Positions 2,891 to 22,222 of a DNA stretch of 64,000 nt are shown piece after piece. A program made the position numbers and the translations under genes. Where the stretch lies: positions 34,727 to 98,726 of the forward strand of contig CADBCT010000001.1 in assembly GCA_902793315.1 (NCBI GenBank), in the 5' to 3' direction. The notes beneath the pieces are model-generated. The model saw only the letters and a program-made list of their open reading frames with translations, had not been told where the DNA came from and did no database searches. This DNA comes from an uncultured Erysipelotrichaceae bacterium. Lineage in GTDB: Bacteria; Bacillota_I; Bacilli_A; RF39; UBA660. Numbering within the stretch: the stretch's first letter is position 1; every line of letters begins with the position of its first letter.

Positions 2891-2906
2891 TGTTTCACGT
2901 GGAACA
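2891..2906. promoter_or_regulatory. parS: parS site 1 (Spo0J/ParB centromere-like site)
   Basis: TGTTTCACGTGGAACA is the exact reverse complement of the B. subtilis parS consensus TGTTCCACGTGAAACA. Confidence 0.8.
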
Positions 2907-2918
2907 TTTATTATTTCT

Positions 2919-2932
2919 ATTTCCTGGGAAAT
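2919..2932. promoter_or_regulatory. Noc-binding-site (NBS)-like palindrome 1
   Basis: ATTTCCTGGGAAAT versus the B. subtilis NBS consensus ATTTCCCGGGAAAT (one central mismatch). 6-bp perfect inverted arms. Confidence 0.55.
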
Positions 2933-2952
2933 AATTTTGTTACTTTTAGTTA

Positions 2953-2968
2953 TGTTTCACGTGGAACA
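2953..2968. promoter_or_regulatory. parS: parS site 2
   Basis: TGTTTCACGTGGAACA, perfect match to the parS consensus (reverse complement). 62 bp from site 1. Confidence 0.8.
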
Positions 2969-2980
2969 TTTATTGTTTTT

Positions 2981-2994
2981 ATTTCCTGGGAAAT
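2981..2994. promoter_or_regulatory. NBS-like palindrome 2
   Basis: ATTTCCTGGGAAAT, identical to copy 1. 28 bp downstream of parS site 2. Confidence 0.55.
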
Positions 2995-3018
2995 AATTTT
3001 GTTACTTTTAGTTATGTA

Positions 3019-3034
3019 TGTTTCACGTGGAACA
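3019..3034. promoter_or_regulatory. parS: parS site 3
   Basis: TGTTTCACGTGGAACA. 66 bp from site 2 (unit with a 4-bp TGTA insertion). Confidence 0.8.
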
Positions 3035-3046
3035 TTTATTGTTTTT

Positions 3047-3060
3047 ATTTCCTGGGAAAT
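3047..3060. promoter_or_regulatory. NBS-like palindrome 3
   Basis: ATTTCCTGGGAAAT. The fourth repeat unit is truncated before this element. Confidence 0.55.
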
Positions 3061-3080
3061 AATTTTGTTACTTTTAGTTA

Positions 3081-3096
3081 TGTTTCACGTGGAACA
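3081..3096. promoter_or_regulatory. parS: parS site 4
   Basis: TGTTTCACGTGGAACA. 62 bp from site 3. Array ends here, before the gyrA terminator. Confidence 0.8.
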
Positions 3097-10608: not shown

Positions 10609-11979
10609 TTACACACCACCTATATCTTTCTTTAATTTTTCTATAATATTAGCTAAATCTTTATTTATTTTTATTTCATTTTCAATTTTTTCAACTGAAT
10701 ACATTACTGTAGTATGATCTTTACCACCAAATTCAATAGCAATCTTTGGAAATGACTCGGTAGTCATATTTCTGCAGAGATACATAGCAATTTGTCTAGG
10801 AAAAGAAATATTAGCACTTCTTTTCTTACTTCTGATATCTTCAGTTGATATTTGAAAATATTCAGAAACTATTCGTTGAATTCGTTGAATGTTATTTTTC
10901 TCCCCTATTCCTTTACTTATATTATCTTTAAGAGCCTCAATTGCTAAATCTAAAGTAATTTTTTCTCCACCCATTATTGTGGAATAAGCAACTAATCTTG
11001 TAACAGCTCCTTCTAGTTTTCTAACATCAGGTCCTATATTATTAGCCATATATTCTATTACTTCGTCTGGAATATCATCATTAAAATCATTAGCAACTAT
11101 TTTTTTCTTTAATATTTCTTTCTTTAATGCTAATTCTGGAGGATAAATATTTGCTTGTAATCCCCATGTAAATCTTGTTCTTAATCGTTCTTCCAAAATT
11201 TTCAAATCATCTGGAGATCGATCAGAAGATATAACAATTTGTTTATTATCATTATGTAAAATATTAAAGGTATGAAAAAATTCATCTTGTGATTTTGAAG
11301 CACCACCTAAGAATTGAATATCATCAATTAATAGGACATCAACATTTCTATACTTATCTTTAAAGAAATCTACATAATTGAAATTGGTTCCATCATCATC
11401 TCTTCTACTGGCTTTAACAAAATCTTGTCTAAATTGTTCACTAGTAACATATAATACACATTTATTACTATGTTCTACAACATAATTTCCTATTGCATGC
11501 ATTAAATGTGTTTTACCTAATCCACTATTACCATATAGAAATAAGGGATTATAAAGTAAACCAGGATTCTCAGCAACACTTAAAGCAGAAGCCTGAGCAA
11601 ATTTATTACTATTTCCTACAATAAAATTATCAAAAGTATAATTTTTATTTAGATTACTATTAATATTCTCAACTTTCTTAGGAGTATTTTCATATAATTC
11701 TTTTTCTTCTTCTTTATTTTTTTCATCTTCTAATTCATCGCTTAAAATAAAGACAAGTTCATAATTAGTACCGGTTAAAATATTTAAATTATTCTTTATA
11801 ATATCAGAATAATTATTAGATAAATGTTTTTTATGAATAGCCATCGGAACTATTATATAAGCTTTTTCATTATCTAATTTATATAATTTGGTATCCGAAA
11901 ACCAAGTATCATAAGAGAGAGAGGTTAGTTCTGTTTTTAAATTTTCTAATAATTTAGACCATAAAACATCTACATTCAT
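10609..11979 (-). CDS. dnaA: Chromosomal replication initiator protein DnaA
   Basis: AAA+ Walker A GNSGLGKTHL, Walker B LLIDDIQFL, C-terminal DNA-binding helix ...KDHTTVMYSVEKI. Start set at ATG (MNVDVLWSKLLENLK) preceded by GGGGAGATGG. The ORF-track start is a TTG 6 codons upstream. Confidence 0.93.
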   Translation of the reverse strand: MNVDVLWSKLLENLKTELTSLSYDTWFSDTKLYKLDNEKAYIIVPMAIHKKHLSNNYSDIIKNNLNILTGTNYELVFILSDELEDEKNKEEEKELYENTPKKVENINSNLNKNYTFDNFIVGNSNKFAQASALSVAENPGLLYNPLFLYGNSGLGKTHLMHAIGNYVVEHSNKCVLYVTSEQFRQDFVKASRRDDDGTNFNYVDFFKDKYRNVDVLLIDDIQFLGGASKSQDEFFHTFNILHNDNKQIVISSDRSPDDLKILEERLRTRFTWGLQANIYPPELALKKEILKKKIVANDFNDDIPDEVIEYMANNIGPDVRKLEGAVTRLVAYSTIMGGEKITLDLAIEALKDNISKGIGEKNNIQRIQRIVSEYFQISTEDIRSKKRSANISFPRQIAMYLCRNMTTESFPKIAIEFGGKDHTTVMYSVEKIENEIKINKDLANIIEKLKKDIGGV

Positions 11980-12063
11980 TCTACCATCTCCCCACAAGAA
12001 CCATTAACAATTTTTATTCTACATTAAATAGTTAAAAAAATAAATGATTTTTTATTAAAAAAA

Positions 12064-12197
12064 ACAATCCACAAAGAATTCCCAAAGTTATACACAACAA
12101 AGATATTTATATAATAAAGATAAAATGCTGTTTTCCACATTTTCCACAAATTTTTAATAAACAACATAAAAAAAGTTATCAACAAGGTTGTGAATAT
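12064..12197. promoter_or_regulatory. oriC: DnaA-box cluster between dnaA and rpmH (oriC upstream box region and dnaA promoter)
   Basis: ACAATCCACA (12064-12073), TTATACACA (12088-12096), TTTTCCACA x2 tandem (12131-12139, 12140-12148), TTATCAACA (12176-12184), TGTGAATAT (12189-12197). All within 1-2 mismatches of TTATCCACA or its reverse complement. Confidence 0.55.
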
Positions 12198-12276
12198 TGT
12201 TGAAAATAATTTTTCATTGACAAATAAGTGATTCTATTATTATAATAATGTAGATTTATGTTTGGAGGTGGAAGGC

Positions 12277-12399
12277 ATGAAAAGAACATATCAACCAAAT
12301 AACCGTAAAAAATCTAAAAGACTTGGTTTTTTCGCACGTAAAAAAACAAATATCTTAAATCGTCGTCGTCGTAAGGGACGCAAAGTACTTTGTAAATAA
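12277..12399 (+). CDS. rpmH: 50S ribosomal protein L34
   Basis: [40 protein letters not shown] (40 aa). Preceded by GGAGGTGGAAGG. Missing from the ORF track because of its small size. Confidence 0.92.
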
Positions 12400-12446
12400 A
12401 ATACCGCTGTAAACAGTGGTTTTTTACTCTGAAAAGGAGTGATAGT

Positions 12447-12782
12447 ATAAGAAAACTATATATTGTAAGAACAACAAGAGATTTCGATGATATTATAAAA
12501 AACGGGAAAAGCATTAAAAATAAGTATTTTGTAATTCATTACAAAGATAATAATTTGCCATATGATAGATTTGGAATATCTGTTAGTAAAAAATTAGGAA
12601 ATGCTGTTTTTAGAAATAAGTATAAAAGAAAAATTAGAACAATAGTTGATAATTATAAAAAAGAGTATCTTAATAATAAAGATTATATTATAATATTAAG
12701 GAAAGAGGCATTATCTAGAAATTTTAAAGAATTAAATAAAGATTTTTTAGAATTAATGCAAAAAAATAAGAAAGGAATTTAA
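12447..12782 (+). CDS. rnpA: Ribonuclease P protein component. 5' end uncertain: no canonical start codon in frame.
   Basis: Frame continues upstream of the track ORF as ...IRKLYIVRTTRDFDDIIKNGKSIKNKYFVIHYKDNNLPYDRFGISVSKKLGNAVFRNKYKRKIR, which is the RnpA family. GGAG at 12435-12438. Only ATA/ATT/CTG codons are available between the upstream stop (12393) and conserved residues. Confidence 0.7.
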   Translation: MRKLYIVRTTRDFDDIIKNGKSIKNKYFVIHYKDNNLPYDRFGISVSKKLGNAVFRNKYKRKIRTIVDNYKKEYLNNKDYIIILRKEALSRNFKELNKDFLELMQKNKKGI

Positions 12783-12785
12783 GAA

Positions 12786-13721
12786 ATGAACAGTAAAAAT
12801 AAAAAGAGAATAATAGTAATACTTTTCTTATTAATCTTAACAACAGGATGTACTAAAACATTAACTGATGAAAATAAAAAGCCTGTTAGAAATGAGACAA
12901 CTGGTCAAACTTTGACAGCAAATATTTTGTGTCAGCCTACAAATAAAACAACTAAAGAATTATATAAGAAAAATGGTGTAAAAATAGATAAATTACCTGA
13001 ATGCAGTGAATTTAAAATAACTTCTGGAAAATATGAAGGTTTATGGACTTCTATTTTTGTTAAACCATTGGCTTATTTCTTATTAGTTTTAGGTAGTTTA
13101 GTTAAGAATTATGGTATTTCTGTAATAATAATAAGTTTAATAATTAGGTTTATTGCTTATCCAATCACTAAAAAAACAGCTATGCAATCAGAAATGATGA
13201 AAAAGGCACAACCAGAAATAAATAGATTACAAAAGAAATATGCTAATAAGAAAGATCAAGAGTCTATGATTAAACAAAATCAAGAGATGATGGCAATTTA
13301 TAAGAAATATAATATTAATCCAATGGGTGGTTGCTTATTTGCTATGATTCAATTACCAATTTTTGTAGCTTTCTTTGAAGCAGTACAAAGAACACCAGTA
13401 ATTTTTGAAGATAAGTTCTTAGGATTACAATTGGGTACAACACCTTCAGTAGGTATAGCAAATCCAACTTTTTATTCTTATATAATCTTAATGTTATTAA
13501 TTGCTGGAACAACATATTTATCATTCAAAATGACTGGAATGAGTAATAATGATGATCCTACAATGAAAATGATGCCAACTATGATGACAGTGATGATCAT
13601 TGTAACTGCAATGTTCATGCCAACAGGTTTAGGTATATATTGGATTACATCTAATTTATTTACGATGGCCCAAAATTATATTGTGAGAAGGAGTAAGAAA
13701 GATGGAAAAGCGAAAGTTTAG
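12786..13721 (+). CDS. yidC: Membrane protein insertase YidC/SpoIIIJ (lipoprotein type)
   Basis: 311 aa. Lipobox LILTTGC, then Oxa1/YidC 60-kDa IMP domain with 5 TM segments. rpmH-rnpA-yidC-jag operon order. Confidence 0.85.
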   Translation: MNSKNKKRIIVILFLLILTTGCTKTLTDENKKPVRNETTGQTLTANILCQPTNKTTKELYKKNGVKIDKLPECSEFKITSGKYEGLWTSIFVKPLAYFLLVLGSLVKNYGISVIIISLIIRFIAYPITKKTAMQSEMMKKAQPEINRLQKKYANKKDQESMIKQNQEMMAIYKKYNINPMGGCLFAMIQLPIFVAFFEAVQRTPVIFEDKFLGLQLGTTPSVGIANPTFYSYIILMLLIAGTTYLSFKMTGMSNNDDPTMKMMPTMMTVMIIVTAMFMPTGLGIYWITSNLFTMAQNYIVRRSKKDGKAKV

Positions 13722-14374: not shown

Positions 14375-15106
14375 ATGAAAAAGATATATTTAATAATTTT
14401 AATTTTAATAATTGGCATAACAACGAATGCAAAGGCATCAACACCGCCTTATATATGGACTATTGATAATGGTAATAAAAATTTAAGAGAAGATGTTACA
14501 ACAATAACAGATACAGCATTTTTAGAAAGAAAAGAAGGGCCTGAAAGTGGTGAATTTAAGATTTATGTTTTAAAATTAAACAATTATCATGGATCAGGTA
14601 TTGAATTAGAGTGTCGTGGAACAGGACAAAGTGGAATGCATTTTATTATTGAATTAACCGGAAAAAATGTAATTAACGATAACAATATTGGAATTAATTA
14701 TGATTATAGTCCTGATTTTGAATTCACTGGAAATGGATCACTAATTATAAATGCACCTATACCAATATCAAATAAAGAATATAAAAATCTTTTTACAATC
14801 GGTGATGTAACGCCGGAAGAAATAGAAAAAAGTGTGAATGATGTAGATTCTATGGAAGAATCATCAAAAGATGAAAATGTTCCAGAAGAAGTTGAAAAAA
14901 ATACTGTAAAAGATAAAGCAGAAGATGAAGATGAAGAGAACTTAATTGCTGAACAAAGAGAAAAAGAAGCAAGAGATTCAGAAAAAAAAGATAAAATAAT
15001 AATTTATACCTGTTTAGGGGCTTTTGTAGTTTTAATATTATTTATTGTTCTACGTATTTTAAAACAAAATAAAATAAAAAAAGAAAAAGAATTAAAAGAA
15101 GAATAA
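14375..15106 (+). CDS. Hypothetical surface protein: N-terminal signal peptide, acidic Glu/Asp/Lys-rich region, C-terminal TM anchor
   Basis: MKKIYLIILILIIGITTNAKAS signal. Hydrophobic LGAFVVLILFIVL near the C-terminus. Extended -10 TGCTATAAT upstream. Confidence 0.45.
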   Translation: MKKIYLIILILIIGITTNAKASTPPYIWTIDNGNKNLREDVTTITDTAFLERKEGPESGEFKIYVLKLNNYHGSGIELECRGTGQSGMHFIIELTGKNVINDNNIGINYDYSPDFEFTGNGSLIINAPIPISNKEYKNLFTIGDVTPEEIEKSVNDVDSMEESSKDENVPEEVEKNTVKDKAEDEDEENLIAEQREKEARDSEKKDKIIIYTCLGAFVVLILFIVLRILKQNKIKKEKELKEE

Positions 15107-19085: not shown

Positions 19086-19164
19086 TTTTTTAGTTGAAAT
19101 AAAAAGTAAAATCAAGTATAATGCTAATATAGGGTAAATAAGAGAATAAAGAAAGGGGAATAAC

Positions 19165-20430
19165 ATGTATCCAGATACTAAAGATGAAGTAGTACAATTA
19201 TATCTAGATGACATTATTCCAAATAGGTTTCAACCAAGAGAAGTATTTGATGAAAAAGCCTTAAAAGAATTAGCTGTATCTATTAAAGAACATGGTGTAA
19301 TACAACCAATAATTGTACGAAGTGTAAATGGCAAATATGAAATAATAGCTGGAGAAAGAAGATATAAAGCTTCAGCTTTAGCTGGTCTTACTAAAATTCC
19401 CGCTATTGTTAGAGATTTAGATGATAAAGAAAGTTCAAAAGTAGCTTTACTTGAAAACTTACAAAGAAAAAATTTAAATCCAATTGAGGAAGCGAAAACA
19501 TATCAAAAAATATTAGAAATAGATCAAATGACTCAAGAAGAATTAGCTAGAACAATGGGTAAAAGTCAATCAGCTGTAGCTAATAAATTAAGACTTCTTT
19601 CTTTACCAGATGAAATTCAAGAATATCTATTGAAAGAAGAATTATCAGAAAGACATGCTAGAGCACTACTTAATTTAGATGATGCTGAAAAACAAAAAGA
19701 AATGGCTAAAAAAGTTATTGATAATAAAATGAGTGTTAGGAATTTGGAAGCAGAAATTAAAGAAATGACTGGTAAAACTAAACCAAAACAAGAAGAAGCT
19801 TCTGAAACACCTGAAGTAATAGCTTCAACAAAAGCTTTTGTTAATGATAATCCATTAATTCCAACAGCTAAAGTTGAAGAAGATAAGTCAAACTATGGAA
19901 AAGTAACAATTGCACCACCAGAAGGAGAAGAAATGCCTTCTAGTAAATTTATAAATTATGGTGAAATAGATAAGGAAGAAGAAAAAACACCAATGCCTAT
20001 ACCAAATGTTATAACTTCAATAGATGTTAATGATGTTAAAGAGAATACCAATGATATTAAATCTGATGATACAAGCAATTCTGGAAACGCCTTAGATAGT
20101 TTGTTAAATTTAGGTAATCCCACATCATCTATACCGGCAAATGAATTTATAACACCAGCAGAAAAAATTGTAAAAACCGATTCATTAGAAGATCCTATAG
20201 AAGATACTTCTTCAGAATATTTTAATACATCAGATTTATCAAATATTGAATTACCACCAAGTATAATAAATCCTTCTGAAGAAGAAAATACTGGAACTTA
20301 TAGTATAGAAGAAGCAGTAGAAAAAATAAAAAATACTATAGAAGATTTAAAAAAGCATGGAATTAATCTAAATGCTGATGAAATGGATTTTGAAAAATCA
20401 TATCAAATGATTATAAAGATAGAAAAATAA
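19165..20430 (+). CDS. noc: Noc-like ParB-family protein (nucleoid occlusion protein paralogue) with a long low-complexity C-terminal extension
   Basis: The N-terminal 200 aa align to B. subtilis Noc/ParB: DIIPNRFQPR, GVIQPIIVR, EIIAGERRYKA, ALLENLQRKNL, AVANKLRLLSLP, SERHARALL. Position between rsmG and soj is the same as B. subtilis noc. Residues about 200-421 are E/S/T/N/P-rich with no Noc counterpart. Sigma-A-like promoter TTGAAA-N17-TATAAT at about 19094-19125. Confidence 0.7.
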   Translation: MYPDTKDEVVQLYLDDIIPNRFQPREVFDEKALKELAVSIKEHGVIQPIIVRSVNGKYEIIAGERRYKASALAGLTKIPAIVRDLDDKESSKVALLENLQRKNLNPIEEAKTYQKILEIDQMTQEELARTMGKSQSAVANKLRLLSLPDEIQEYLLKEELSERHARALLNLDDAEKQKEMAKKVIDNKMSVRNLEAEIKEMTGKTKPKQEEASETPEVIASTKAFVNDNPLIPTAKVEEDKSNYGKVTIAPPEGEEMPSSKFINYGEIDKEEEKTPMPIPNVITSIDVNDVKENTNDIKSDDTSNSGNALDSLLNLGNPTSSIPANEFITPAEKIVKTDSLEDPIEDTSSEYFNTSDLSNIELPPSIINPSEEENTGTYSIEEAVEKIKNTIEDLKKHGINLNADEMDFEKSYQMIIKIEK

Positions 20431-20435
20431 TAGAA

Positions 20436-20470
20436 AAGTAGATGGTGATAAAAATCTACTTTTTTTTATA
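20436..20470 (+). terminator. Rho-independent terminator after noc
   Basis: AAAGTAGAT-GGTGATAAAA-ATCTACTTT followed by T7. Confidence 0.6.
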
Positions 20471-20523: not shown

Positions 20524-21324
20524 ATGGGTGATTCGATGGGAAAAATAATATCGTTAGTAAATCAAAAAGGTGGAGTTGGTAAGACAACTACTAGTATAAA
20601 TTTATCTGCTTCATTAGCAGTATTAGGTAAAAAAACACTTTTAATAGATTTAGATCCTCAAGGAAATACAACAACAGGTGTGGGAATTAACAAAGGAGAT
20701 ATTAATAAAAGTATTTATGAAGTTTTAACAGGCGAATGTAGCATTAAAGAAGCAATATTAAAAACAAAATACAAAGATTTTTTTGTTATACCATCAACAA
20801 TCAATTTAGCTGGATTAAATGCTGAATTTTTAGAAAAGAGTAGAACACAAGCAGGTTATAAAAAAGGAGAACAATTAAAGAATTGTCTTGCTGACATCAA
20901 AGATAGCTTCGATTATATAATTTTGGACTGTCCTCCAGCGCTTGATGTTATTACTACAAACGCTTTAACAGCTTCTAATTCTGTAATAATTCCAGTGCAA
21001 TGTGAATTTTTTGCTTTAGAGGGAATAACTCAACTATTAAAAACAATAATGTTAGCACAAAAAACTTTAAATCCTAACTTGGATATTGAAGGAGTTTTAT
21101 TAACAATGTTAGATTCAAGAACTAACTTAGGATTTGAAGTGGTTGAAGATATTAGAAGCTTCTTTAAAGAAAAAGTATATAACACAATTATTCCAAGATT
21201 AGTAAAACTAACAGAAGCTCCATCACATGGAGAACCTATAATAACTTATGAACCAAAAAGTAGAGGTGCAGAGGCTTACCTAAATTTAGCAAAGGAAGTG
21301 ATTGAAAGAAATGGAAACAAATAA
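20524..21324 (+). CDS. soj: Chromosome partitioning ATPase ParA/Soj
   Basis: Deviant Walker A KGGVGKTTT, DLDPQGN, ParA/MinD fold. Followed by spo0J. Confidence 0.92.
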   Translation: MGDSMGKIISLVNQKGGVGKTTTSINLSASLAVLGKKTLLIDLDPQGNTTTGVGINKGDINKSIYEVLTGECSIKEAILKTKYKDFFVIPSTINLAGLNAEFLEKSRTQAGYKKGEQLKNCLADIKDSFDYIILDCPPALDVITTNALTASNSVIIPVQCEFFALEGITQLLKTIMLAQKTLNPNLDIEGVLLTMLDSRTNLGFEVVEDIRSFFKEKVYNTIIPRLVKLTEAPSHGEPIITYEPKSRGAEAYLNLAKEVIERNGNK

Positions 21325-22222
21325 TATTTCTGAAAGTGGAATTCCTAAAAGAAGAGCTTTAGGAAAAGGATTAGAAGAATTGTTTAATAACGAAGTCATT
21401 GATTATAGTGCTGTAGAAGAAAAAATAGTTAATGAAACACCAAGAGAAGAAATAGAAATGTTAAACTTAGATGAATTAAGAAGTAATCCATATCAACCTA
21501 GAAAAAATTTTGATGAAGAAGCACTAAAAGAATTGGCTGAATCAATTAAAGAACATGGAGTAATCCAACCGATAATAGCTAAAAAATCAATCAAAGGATA
21601 TGAAATAATAGCTGGAGAAAGAAGAGTAAAAGCATCAAGAATGGCAGGTTTAACAGAAATCCCTGCTATTGTAAAAGATTTTAATGATAAACAAATGATG
21701 GAAATCGCGTTACTTGAAAATCTTCAAAGAGAAGATTTATCAGCAATTGAAGAAGCATCAGCTTATAAAAAATTACAAGAGACTTTAGTATTAACTCAAG
21801 AAGAATTAGCAAAGAGATTAGGTAAAAGTAGAAGTCATATAACAAATATGCTAGGGTTGCTTTCTTTACCTCAAGATATTCAACAACAGATAGTTAATAA
21901 AGAATTATCAATGGGGCATGCAAGAGTTTTAAGTAAATTACAAGATTCTGAGCAACAAGAAGAATTAGCAAAAAGAGTAATATCAGAAGGAATAAGTGTA
22001 AGAGAATTAGAAAAGTTGACTATGGAGCCAACAATAATTAAAACTAATCCTCAAAAGAAGAAACAAGAAAAAAATTCTCAATATGTTTATCTTCAAACAG
22101 AATTAAGTGAAAAGTTGGGTACGAAAGTAACAATTAAAAAGAATAAAATAGAAATTAGTTTTGTAAATGATAATGATTTAAATAGATTATTAGAATATAT
22201 GAATATTGAGGTTGAAGAGTAA
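21302..22222 (+). CDS. spo0J: Chromosome partitioning protein ParB/Spo0J
   Basis: 306 aa. ParB box motifs (GVIQPIIAK, EIIAGERRVKASRMAGL, LLENLQRE), HTH (AKRLGKSRSHITNMLGLLSLP), C-terminal dimerisation domain. Confidence 0.92.
   Translation: MKEMETNNISESGIPKRRALGKGLEELFNNEVIDYSAVEEKIVNETPREEIEMLNLDELRSNPYQPRKNFDEEALKELAESIKEHGVIQPIIAKKSIKGYEIIAGERRVKASRMAGLTEIPAIVKDFNDKQMMEIALLENLQREDLSAIEEASAYKKLQETLVLTQEELAKRLGKSRSHITNMLGLLSLPQDIQQQIVNKELSMGHARVLSKLQDSEQQEELAKRVISEGISVRELEKLTMEPTIIKTNPQKKKQEKNSQYVYLQTELSEKLGTKVTIKKNKIEISFVNDNDLNRLLEYMNIEVEE

What the first reader, a model, noticed from the sequence alone, without database searches (positions are those of the whole stretch)
19165..20430. Noc-like ParB paralogue that lacks the N-terminal membrane-targeting helix and carries a ~220-aa low-complexity C-terminal extension
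The gene is in the canonical rsmG-noc-soj-spo0J position. Its first ~200 aa are clearly Noc/ParB-like (DIIPNRFQPR...GERRYKA...ANKLRLLSLP...SERHARALL). However the protein starts only about 15 residues before the ParB-box core. There is no room for the ~10-aa amphipathic helix that B. subtilis Noc uses to bind the membrane. It is 421 aa versus ~283, and the extra C-terminal half is E/S/T/N/P/I-rich with no Noc counterpart. Its only NBS-like targets in this window sit interleaved with parS (see the parS/NBS array finding). This paralogue may therefore have a function other than classic nucleoid occlusion.
Basis: partly seen in the sequence, partly recalled or inferred. Interest (0 to 1): 0.6.

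Follow-up and report, generated by a model that had tools for sequence, protein, structure and literature searches.

The report
Noc orthologue lacking its membrane helix
[quoted passage not shown] It has lost the N-terminal membrane-binding peptide thought universal in Noc, and carries about 165 extra disordered residues with conserved short motifs between its DNA-binding and dimerisation domains.

Summary
The ORF (19165-20430, 421 aa) is real and is a Noc orthologue. It sits in rsmG-noc-soj-spo0J synteny. Its best solved-structure matches are Noc, while its neighbour Spo0J matches B. subtilis Spo0J best. Its specificity residues are Q-K-S-R (Noc QKKR, ParB RTAG), and the CTP-motif residues are intact.

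The extra sequence is not a C-terminal extension. It is an insertion of about 165 aa in the DBD-CTD linker, and the last ~45 aa are the normal Noc C-terminal domain. The linker is acidic and predicted disordered, yet it evolves under purifying selection and holds conserved short motifs. One motif, KFINYGEID-KEEE, resembles the canonical Noc N-terminal motif SRFFNFGEKEQEE (p about 0.01-0.02).

The architecture is widespread. All 150 best representatives at 50% clustering share it.

NBS-like sites are interleaved with parS downstream of gyrA. At least 120 metagenome loci carry adjacent parS and NBS sites, mostly at this syntenic position.

Verdict: a new variant of a known kind. How it works is inferred, not shown.

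The parts
19094..19122 (+). Promoter-like site TTGAAA-17-TATAAT (11 of 12 matches), about 40 nt upstream of the start codon
   Evidence: This is a consensus match only.
19165..20430 (+). noc orthologue, 421 aa, including the stop codon
19186..19464 (+). ParB N-terminal (CTP-binding) domain, residues 8-100. It holds box I PNRFQPR (19219-19239), GERR (19351-19362; R66 corresponds to Bs Noc R89) and ENLQR (19453-19467; N98 corresponds to Bs Noc N121).
   Evidence: Pfam PF02195 E=3.6e-35. These residues are invariant in 39 homologues. Residue roles come from PMC8429893 and PMC4331003.
19468..19767 (+). HTH DNA-binding domain, residues 102-201. The specificity residues are Q135 (19567-19569), K141 (19585-19587), S146 (19600-19602) and R163 (19651-19653). 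They correspond to Caulobacter positions 173/179/184/201.
   Evidence: Pfam PF17762; alignment to Geobacillus and B. subtilis Noc; rule from PMC7383237; Q-K-[S/G/A/T]-R in 80 species
19777..20289 (+). Inserted acidic, disordered DBD-CTD linker, residues 205-375 (net charge -23, pLDDT below 50). It holds conserved short motifs: FVNDNPLIPT 19837-19866, SNYGKVTIAPPEG 19888-19926, ALDSLLNLG 20089-20115, FITPAEKIVKTD 20146-20181, EYFNTSD 20215-20235.
19945..19971 (+). KFINYGEID motif, followed by KEEE. It resembles the canonical Noc N-terminal membrane-targeting motif SRFF[GSN][LF]GEKE.
20290..20427 (+). Noc-type C-terminal domain, residues 376-421 (helix 381-397, strands 402-408 and 413-419)
   Evidence: TIGR04285 positions 215-255, E=5e-4; pLDDT 74-82; conserved ...DEM[DN]FEKSYQIIIKIDK in all relatives
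20434..20468 (+). Hairpin (GTAGAT...ATCTAC) followed by a T-run, a likely terminator after noc
   Evidence: Read directly. The G+C-based scan did not call it.
2891..3096 (.). Array of 4 parS (2891, 2953, 3019, 3081) interleaved with 3 NBS-like sites (2918, 2980, 3046), between gyrA and tadA-dnaX. These are the presumed loading sites of Spo0J and of this Noc.
20524..21324 (+). soj (parA)
21302..22222 (+). spo0J (parB). It has the N-terminal KRRALGKGLEELF peptide, R...G parS-type specificity residues and a ParB_C domain.

Best explanation
This is the Noc orthologue of a large, uncultured, low-GC gut and rumen Bacilli lineage, in a remodelled form.

Shown:
- It keeps the ParB-type CTP-binding N-domain, an NBS-type helix-turn-helix domain and the Noc C-terminal dimerisation domain.
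- It lacks the whole N-terminal peptide (membrane helix alpha1, helix alpha2 and the connecting loop).
- It has gained an acidic, disordered linker of about 165 aa. The linker is under purifying selection and carries conserved short motifs.

Inferred:
- It loads as a dimer on NBS sites.
- It binds CTP, closes into a sliding clamp and spreads. It does so side by side with Spo0J, because its NBS sites are interleaved with parS in an origin-proximal array between gyrA and tadA-dnaX.
- The effector function that canonical Noc places at the N-terminus is supplied by the flexible linker.

My preferred guess is that the [KR]-F-[FI]-N-[YF]-G-E-acidic motif is a displaced or re-invented copy of the Noc membrane-targeting motif. 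It would tether the origin-proximal Noc/ParB-DNA complex weakly and multivalently to the membrane. DNA-membrane tethering or occlusion would then be focused on the origin region rather than spread over the chromosome.
For: Orthology:
- The synteny mnmG-rsmG-noc-soj-spo0J is seen in 62 of 80 loci. The other loci show subsets of this order and one has soj and spo0J inverted.
- Best solved-structure hits are reciprocal. Noc-like to Noc scores 217 bits, against 172.5 to Bs Spo0J. The window Spo0J to Bs Spo0J scores 221, against 171 to Noc.
- Foldseek's top hit is 7NFU, TM 0.79.
- TIGR04285 scores 300-310 bits here, against 242 for the paralogue.

DNA specificity:
- The residues are Q173/K179/R201. 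One permissive Lys at 179 or 184 suffices for NBS recognition (PMC7383237).
- NBS-like sites are present in the window, and canonical ATTTCCCGGGAAAT dominates in related metagenome loci.

CTP switch:
- GERR R66 and ENLQR N98 are invariant.

No N-terminal peptide:
-, compared with canonical Noc.

Linker:
- It is an insertion and the CTD is retained.
- dN/dS is 0.15-0.25 and motifs are conserved in 79 species.
- [KR]F[FI] occurs in 61 of 148 linkers, against 7.7 in shuffles.

Motif resemblance:
- A PSSM built from the family motif picks the N-terminal FSRFF..GEKE site as the best of about 270 positions in 112 of 120 canonical Noc proteins. Only 23 of 2000 shuffles reach that score.
- The reverse PSSM's best hit in the window linker is KFINYGEI, p about 0.02.

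Co-loading with ParB:
- The window has the interleaved array.
- At least 120 metagenome loci carry parS-NBS clusters. 79 have a gyrA match and 93 have a tadA match.
- 208 of 287 NBS sites lie within 60 bp of a parS.
Against: - No membrane, CTP or DNA binding has been measured.
- The motif lacks equivalents of K2 and F5 of the canonical helix. It sits in a strongly acidic region (-23), has a low helical hydrophobic moment (0.25), and is not predicted helical.
- The motif similarity is short. The statistics (p about 0.01-0.02) come from sequences that are not independent.
- A linker-borne motif would not be gated by CTP-driven N-domain engagement in the way described for canonical Noc.
- In the wider family only part of the linkers carry this motif.
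- The protein scores just below NCBI's Noc cut-off (309.7, against 315).
- The genome-wide NBS distribution is unknown, because only 64 kb was seen.
- Related loci also carry isolated NBS sites away from the main cluster: 24 in 519 kb of flank.
- The link between the arrays in other genomes and helix-less Noc is inferred, not shown.
Confidence: 0.5

Rival explanations
1. Protein-adaptor model. The helix-less Noc never touches the membrane. Its NBS-loaded clamps decorate the origin region, and the conserved linker motifs (FVNxxPLxPT, SNYGKVxIAPP, KFINYGEI, LDSLLN, FITPAExIVK, DYF) recruit protein partners. Candidates are Soj/ParA, divisome components, or replication or condensin factors.
For: - Several separate motifs are conserved, with variable spacers between them, as is typical of docking motifs.
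- ALDSLLN resembles the GLEELFN part of the same organism's Spo0J N-terminal, ParA-interacting peptide.
- [LIVF]D[SNAY]L[FL] occurs in 20 of 148 linkers, against 0.5 in shuffles, and is sometimes repeated.
- The acidic linker is ill-suited to bind anionic membranes.
- Noc and Spo0J loading sites are interleaved.
Against: - No partner has been identified.
- For B. subtilis Noc, extensive searches found no protein partner (PMC4331003).
- The motifs are subfamily-specific, not family-wide.
- The LDSLL/ParB-peptide resemblance was not tested statistically against ParB peptides.
Confidence: 0.3
2. Passive-linker model. The long acidic disordered linker has no specific ligand. It acts as a spacer or entropic bristle that changes the physical properties of the mixed ParB/Noc nucleoprotein complex, such as clamp spacing, condensate behaviour or steric exclusion.
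For: - Linker length varies from 31 to 546 aa across the family.
- Composition is always acidic and N/E/P/S-rich, with almost no R, H, W or C.
- The linker is predicted disordered.
Against: - Discrete motifs are conserved at 80-95% or more over 79 species.
- Linker dN/dS is as low as that of the folded CTD.
- Specific motifs are strongly enriched over shuffles.
Confidence: 0.12
3. It is a second parS-binding ParB, a duplicate centromere protein, and not a Noc.
For: - Position 184 is S, not K.
- NCBI pipelines name it 'ParB/RepB/Spo0J family partition protein'.
- It scores below the TIGR04285 cut-off.
Against: - It has Q173 and R201 instead of the R173 and G201 that are invariant in ParB.
- It lacks a ParA-interacting N-terminal peptide and a Pfam ParB_C hit.
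- The reciprocal best hits go to Noc.
- NBS sites are conserved in the lineage.
Confidence: 0.03
4. It is an artefact or a decaying gene: a mis-called start, a frameshift or a junk low-complexity insertion.
For: Some metagenome copies are split or truncated. For example, P0122 and P0136 lie on one 3.8-kb contig.
Against: - The same start context, with upstream stops, occurs in 80 species.
- Full-length ORFs occur in the 150 best 50%-identity cluster representatives.
- All three segments are under purifying selection.
- The catalytic and DNA-binding residues are intact.
Confidence: 0.02

Closest known systems
Canonical Noc of Bacillaceae (B. subtilis, Geobacillus thermoleovorans; PDB 7NFU, 7NG0, 7OL9, 6Y93; NCBIfam TIGR04285)
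   Same: - Gene position after rsmG and before soj-spo0J.
- ParB-type CTP domain with GERR and ENLQR.
- HTH domain with Q173, K179 and R201.
- Noc-type C-terminal domain.
- 52% identity and TM 0.79 to 7NFU.
- An NBS motif is present in the genome.
   Different: - No N-terminal membrane-targeting helix alpha1, helix alpha2 or loop. 18 residues precede PNRFQPR, against 35-56.
- Position 184 is S, against an invariant K in 120 canonical Noc.
- The DBD-CTD linker is about 165 aa longer and acidic, where the canonical one is short and basic (GERKPKPKRKA).
- NBS sites are clustered with parS rather than only scattered.
- It scores below the curated cut-off (310, against 315).
Chromosomal ParB/Spo0J (the window's own paralogue at 21302-22222; PDB 6SDK)
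   Same: - Same fold and CTP motifs.
- Presumed clamp-and-slide mechanism.
- Loading sites lie in the same array.
   Different: - Specificity residues are Q..R, not R..G.
- No LGKGL ParA-interacting N-terminal peptide.
- No Pfam ParB_C hit.
- Long linker.
ParB-to-Noc intermediate variants with one permissive lysine (for example QKAR) from the deep mutational study of Jalal et al. 2020 (PMC7383237)
   Same: The natural family has Q-K-[S/N/T/A/G]-R. That is both switching residues plus a single permissive Lys, a class the paper reports as sufficient for NBS recognition.
   Different: Those were engineered Caulobacter ParB variants. The exact QKSR variant was not found in the text of the supplementary files held.
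KorB of plasmid RK2, a ParB-family CTP clamp that acts through partner proteins
   Same: It is a ParB-family clamp whose biological output depends on contacts outside the core clamp. It is a weak sequence and fold relative.
   Different: It differs in DNA site, in partners (KorA, IncC) and in biological role (gene silencing). There is no evidence here for a repressor role.
Origin-membrane anchoring proteins such as RicO of S. aureus (bioRxiv 10.64898/2026.03.06.710092; abstract only)
   Same: Conceptually similar if this Noc tethers the origin region to the membrane.
   Different: No sequence comparison with RicO was made here, and this is an analogy only. I did not read the paper beyond its abstract.

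Membership tests
Noc (nucleoid occlusion protein, TIGR04285) | ParB-type N-domain with CTP-binding and hydrolysis residues (GERR R89, ENLQR N121 in B. subtilis numbering) | tested here: met
   R66 and N98 are present and invariant in 39 homologues. Their roles come from PMC8429893 and PMC4331003.
Noc (nucleoid occlusion protein, TIGR04285) | NBS-specificity residues Q173, K179, K184, R201 | tested here: inconclusive
   Q, K and R are present, but position 184 is S (S/G/A/T/N across the family), against an invariant K in 120 canonical Noc. The literature says one Lys at 179 or 184 suffices, so function is likely kept. Binding was not measured.
Noc (nucleoid occlusion protein, TIGR04285) | N-terminal amphipathic membrane-targeting helix (aa 1-10/15), described as extremely conserved and necessary for function | tested here: not met
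   A stop lies 5 codons upstream. Only 11-18 residues precede YLDDIIPN in 80 species. N-terminal residues 1-11 have net charge -2. Canonical Noc has MKH[SP]FSRFF...
Noc (nucleoid occlusion protein, TIGR04285) | Noc-type C-terminal domain | tested here: met
   The last 50 aa match TIGR04285 positions 215-255 (E=5e-4). The linker-spliced protein aligns 1-255/255.
Noc (nucleoid occlusion protein, TIGR04285) | Curated whole-protein score cut-off (315 bits) | tested here: not met
   299.7 bits native and 309.7 bits with the linker removed.
Noc (nucleoid occlusion protein, TIGR04285) | Gene position rsmG(gidB)-noc-soj-spo0J and orthology by reciprocal best hits | tested here: met
Noc (nucleoid occlusion protein, TIGR04285) | Cognate NBS sites in the genome, scattered over the chromosome except the terminus | tested here: inconclusive
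   NBS-like sites exist, but within the 64 kb all three lie in the parS array. Related loci show clusters plus 24 isolated NBS sites in 519 kb of flank. The whole-genome distribution was not available.
Noc (nucleoid occlusion protein, TIGR04285) | CTP- and DNA-dependent membrane association and inhibition of division over the nucleoid | not testable with these tools
   This needs liposome co-sedimentation, localisation and genetics.
Chromosomal ParB/Spo0J | R173 and G201 (parS recognition) | tested here: not met
   Q135 and R163 occupy these positions.
Chromosomal ParB/Spo0J | N-terminal ParA-interacting peptide (LG[KR]GL...) | tested here: not met
   It is absent at the N-terminus and present in the neighbouring Spo0J (KRRALGKGLEELF).
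Chromosomal ParB/Spo0J | ParB_C dimerisation domain (PF23552) | tested here: not met
   There is no Pfam hit in this protein, while the Spo0J paralogue hits it.

The most novel reading that the evidence does not exclude
In this lineage Noc has been converted from a chromosome-wide, CTP-gated membrane tether into a co-centromere factor. It would load from NBS sites deliberately interleaved with parS next to the origin and co-spread with ParB. It would act through a long disordered linker, into which the ancestral N-terminal membrane-targeting motif has moved or been re-invented alongside other docking motifs. This would uncouple effector exposure from N-domain gating and tie origin segregation to membrane or divisome contact. 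Its Q-K-x-R interface would be a natural example of the single-permissive-lysine state inferred for the ParB-to-Noc transition.
Probability: 0.3. Interest if true: 0.8.

Novelty: new variant of a known kind. Interest (0 to 1): 0.62.

Why it matters
The N-terminal amphipathic helix is treated as the defining, universally conserved and essential effector of Noc (PMC4331003, PMC8429893). CTP is thought to work by releasing that helix.

Here a very large natural clade shows that the Noc scaffold can work without it. The clade covers all 150 best-scoring 50%-identity cluster representatives and 80-230 species-level genomes. These proteins keep the CTP domain, the NBS-type DNA-binding domain and the Noc C-terminal domain, but drop the helix and expand the linker.

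The clade offers three ready-made natural experiments:
- whether membrane binding can be supplied from an internal motif;
- what a ParB/Noc mixed complex on interleaved parS/NBS arrays does;
- how the ParB-to-Noc specificity switch looks with only one permissive lysine.

It also flags a systematic annotation gap. These proteins are named generic ParB because they fall just under the Noc model cut-off.

Tried and rejected
- Linker-only database search. It returned only fragments or split copies of the same family, with no other domain context. So the linker is specific to this family, and no partner clue emerged.
- The listing of cluster members for ten distant representatives. It gave no names or taxa.
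- hmmsearch with a 16-residue HMM of canonical N-termini. Scores were all about 0 or below, and shuffles scored no worse. The method is unsuitable for such short profiles, so I replaced it with ungapped PSSM scans with shuffle controls.
- Helical hydrophobic-moment scan. It shows only that no cationic amphipathic segment exists at the N-terminus. The most amphipathic linker segments are FITPAEKIVK and ALDSLLNLG, and both lack net positive charge.
- NBS and parS search in 680 kb around noc in 80 species. None were found, so the gene is not flanked by its own sites.
- Search of the held supplement text of PMC7383237 for QKSR, QKNR, QKTR and QKAR fitness values. They were not found in that text.
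- Literature searches for helix-less or long-linker Noc. Nothing was found in the library.
- I considered and rejected a parS-binding duplicate ParB, a mis-called start, and a decaying gene (see the rival explanations).
Full report
**1. The observation**

The ORF at 19165..20430 (+) is real. It is 421 aa, starts with ATG, and has AAAGGGG a few bases upstream. A promoter-like TTGAAA-17-TATAAT (11 of 12) sits at 19094-19122. A hairpin plus T-run follows the stop codon.

Upstream genes are mnmE, mnmG and rsmG (Pfam GidB). Downstream genes are soj and spo0J. The window is about 27% G+C. Its GC skew flips near 12 kb, between dnaA and yidC, so noc lies about 7 kb from the presumed origin.

Reading upstream in frame gives '...NANIG*IRE*RKGNN-M'. 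A stop lies five codons before the ATG, with no ATG, GTG or TTG between. An N-terminal extension is therefore impossible without a sequencing error.

**2. Identity**

- Pfam finds ParB_N (residues 8-100) and HTH_ParB (102-201).
- NCBIfam's Noc model TIGR04285 is the best hit at 299.7 bits. That is below its 315-bit cut-off, but well above the neighbouring Spo0J's 242 bits.
- Among solved structures, the best sequence matches are Geobacillus and B. subtilis Noc (217, 217 and 193 bits), ahead of ParB proteins (180 or less).
- The window's Spo0J does the reverse. B. subtilis Spo0J scores 221 bits and Noc scores 171.
- This reciprocal pattern, together with the conserved synteny mnmG-rsmG-noc-soj-spo0J-mscS, argues for orthology with Noc. 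The full order is seen in 62 of 80 related loci. The others show subsets of it, and one has soj and spo0J inverted.
- An AlphaFold model (mean pLDDT 62.5) has a folded part whose best Foldseek match is 7NFU, Geobacillus Noc (TM 0.79, rmsd 2.8 A, 52% identity).

**3. DNA specificity and the CTP switch**

Jalal et al. 2020 (PMC7383237) showed that four positions set specificity: R-T-A-G in ParB and Q-K-K-R in Noc. Q173 reads adenine 1 of NBS and R201 reads cytosine 6. A single permissive lysine at 179 or 184 is sufficient.

From the alignment to Noc structures, this protein has Q135-K141-S146-R163, that is Q-K-S-R. All 80 species-level relatives have Q-K-[S/G/A/T]-R (one is QKQK). The wider family has Q-K-[S/N/T/A/G]-R. 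All 120 canonical Bacillaceae Noc proteins have QKKR. The window's Spo0J has R...G.

The residues equivalent to B. subtilis Noc R89 (CTP binding) and N121 (hydrolysis) are R66 and N98. Both are invariant in the family. I therefore infer an NBS-specific, CTP-dependent clamp. This has not been measured.

**4. The missing N-terminal peptide**

Canonical Noc begins MKH[SP]FSRFF[GSN][LF]GEKE..., and 35-56 residues precede PNRFQPR. Here 18 residues do.

The alignment to 7NFU starts at chain residue 25 against query residue 6. So helix alpha1 (the membrane-targeting sequence), helix alpha2 and the 8-residue loop described in PMC8429893 are all absent.

In all 80 relatives, only 11-18 residues precede YLDDIIPN, usually with stop codons within a few codons upstream of the start.

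Adams et al. 2015 (PMC4331003) reported that this N-terminus is 'extremely' conserved in all Noc homologues examined. They also reported that Noc lacking its first 10 residues is non-functional.

**5. The extra sequence is a linker insertion, not a C-terminal extension**

- The last 50 residues alone match TIGR04285 positions 215-255 (E=5e-4).
- Deleting residues 214-371 gives an end-to-end alignment (1-255/255, 309.7 bits).
- AlphaFold predicts residues 1-204 as folded, 205-375 as disordered (pLDDT below 50), and 381-419 as a confident helix plus two strands.
- The insertion has net charge -23 and is rich in E, S, P, N and I.

The insertion is constrained. Motifs FVNxxPLxPT, SNYGKVxIAPPxG, KFINYGEI, LDxLLN, FITPAExIVKxD and DYF are conserved across 79 species, which share 52-83% identity with the window protein overall. 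Against the three closest relatives, dN/dS is 0.15-0.25 in the linker, 0.06-0.09 in the N-domain plus DBD, and 0.19-0.30 in the CTD.

**6. Breadth of the architecture**

- The first database search returned 120 full-length homologues of 412-467 aa at 64-100% identity. All came from metagenomes or MAGs, and the few that carry a name are called 'ParB/RepB/Spo0J family partition protein'.
- In the species-representative genome collection, 230 stretches encode a relative. The best 80 are MAGs labelled Bacilli, Mollicutes, Tenericutes, Mycoplasmatota or Erysipelotrichaceae, from gut and rumen. One named example, Candidatus Faecimonas intestinavium, is 'Bacilli incertae sedis'.
- An exhaustive HMMER search of 50%-identity cluster representatives listed 150 best hits. 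Nearly all have the same layout: the match starts at residue 2-9 for most, lengths are mostly 335-798 aa, a ...EEFDFExxYQIIIKIDK-type CTD is present, and the specificity pattern is Q-K-x-R.
- Their linkers span 31-546 aa (median 217). All are acidic (-0.12 per residue) and N/E/P/S-rich.
- The linker was not found attached to any other domain.
- I found no paper describing such Noc proteins.

**7. Linker motifs**

Across 148 diverse linkers, several patterns are far more frequent than in composition-preserving shuffles:

| Pattern | Linkers with it | Shuffle expectation |
|---|---|---|
| [KR]F[FI] | 61 | 7.7 +/- 2.7 |
| KF[FI]N | 26 | 0.8 |
| [KR]F[FIL]x[YLFIM][GLP][ED] | 16 | 0.1 |
| [LIVF]D[SNAY]L[FL] | 20 | 0.5 |

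The first group (PKFINYGEIDxDE, NKFFNFLEDE) resembles the canonical N-terminus (SRFFNFGEKEQEE). I tested this two ways.

- A PSSM built from 60 family motif instances was scanned over 120 canonical Noc proteins. It ranks the N-terminal site first of about 270 positions in 112 of them. For Geobacillus Noc, 23 of 2000 shuffles reach that score.
- A PSSM built from canonical N-termini finds its best match in the window linker exactly at KFINYGEI, p about 0.02. For the core RFFGLGE, 38 of 227 linkers pass a 1% threshold, against 2.3 expected.

The sequences are related, so these counts are not independent, and the evidence is suggestive only.

Points against a membrane role:
- There are no equivalents of K2 and F5.
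- The surroundings are acidic.
- The helical moment is low (0.25).
- No helix is predicted there.

A second motif, ALDSLLN, looks like the GLEELFN part of the organism's own Spo0J N-terminal peptide. I did not test this statistically.

**8. The DNA sites**

The window has four parS sites (TGTTTCACGTGGAACA, 1 mismatch) at 2891, 2953, 3019 and 3081. Three NBS-like sites (TATTTCCTGGGAAATA, 1 mismatch) at 2918, 2980 and 3046 are interleaved with them. No other match of either kind occurs at up to 3 mismatches, against 0.3 expected by chance. The array lies between the 3' end of gyrA and tadA-dnaX.

A metagenome scan for parS followed within 5-25 bp by an NBS core stopped at its 120-locus limit.
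- The loci have a median G+C of 26%, and clusters hold up to 7 parS plus 9 NBS sites.
- 79 loci carry a gyrA match and 93 carry a tadA match. GyrA identity to the window is 46-88%.
- 208 of 287 NBS sites lie within 60 bp of a parS. Flanks more than 1 kb from the main cluster hold 24 further NBS sites in 519 kb, but only one parS. By my reading of the coordinates, several of these lie inside or beside dnaX.
- No NBS or parS site occurs in 680 kb around noc in the 80 species.

The Noc and Spo0J loading sites are therefore deliberately juxtaposed in this lineage. That the other array-bearing genomes also encode helix-less Noc is an inference.

**9. Mechanism**

Shown by sequence analysis and structure prediction: the architecture, the conservation, the site types and the site arrangement.

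Inferred:
- NBS-specific loading, CTP-dependent clamping, and spreading together with Spo0J over the origin-proximal region.
- An effector function carried by the linker.

I rank the possible effector functions as follows:
- An internal membrane-targeting-like motif gives weak, multivalent membrane tethering of the origin region. This is my preferred reading.
- The motifs act as protein-docking sites (0.3).
- The acidic linker is a passive spacer (0.12).

A parS-binding duplicate ParB and an artefact are essentially excluded.

**10. Verdict**

The 'C-terminal extension' is in fact an insertion.
- This is a new variant of a known kind. It is widespread and currently annotated only as generic ParB.
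- It departs from two features regarded as defining for Noc: the N-terminal helix and scattered NBS sites.

Noticed in passing
window 2891-3096: Four parS sites and three NBS-like sites strictly alternate with a period of about 62-66 bp, in the gap between gyrA and tadA-dnaX. At least 120 metagenome loci carry adjacent parS and NBS sites; 79 have a gyrA match and 93 a tadA match (GyrA 46-88% identical to the window). Clusters there hold up to 16 sites.
   Followed up: yes
L081 7172; L083 7115; L122 2677; L128 6003; L161 3083; L177 4434; L178 281; L179 7744: In related loci, a solitary canonical NBS site recurs inside or next to the dnaX gene, about 1.5-3 kb from the parS/NBS cluster. The window's own dnaX (587-2236) has none at up to 3 mismatches.
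   Followed up: partly
L089 1270-1318: One contig with 63% G+C also has a parS-NBS pair. The other hits have a median of 26% G+C, though a few reach 31-38%. This may be a different lineage with the same juxtaposition, or a chance or chimeric hit.
   Followed up: no
L201 3001-4854 (protein P0252, 617 aa): A distant member of the helix-less Noc family sits after mnmG-rsmG, but unrelated genes follow it instead of soj-spo0J. Its linker is P/S/T/A/V-rich rather than N/E-rich.
   Followed up: no
window 14375-15106: A 243-aa ORF lies between jag (KH/R3H) and mnmE. It has an N-terminal signal-like segment, an acidic low-complexity stretch and a C-terminal hydrophobic helix. It has no Pfam hit.
   Followed up: no
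window ~12000-12800: GC skew changes sign between dnaA (10609-11997, minus strand) and yidC (12786-13721), marking the likely replication origin. noc lies about 7 kb to one side and the parS/NBS array about 9 kb to the other.
   Followed up: partly
proteins P0180, P0290, P0303, P0271 (distant family members): Some linkers carry several repeats of short aromatic motifs. P0180 has FDSLF, IDSLF, VNSLF, SGLFG and QDLFG. Others have KKFFNLLENE or GRFFSAPLE. This suggests multivalent docking motifs that differ between subfamilies.
   Followed up: partly
proteins P0122 and P0136 (same 3,843-bp metagenome contig): The gene appears split into an N-terminal piece (255 aa) and a linker/CTD piece (165 aa) on one contig. 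The cause could be a frameshift or an assembly error in the A/T-rich linker.
   Followed up: no
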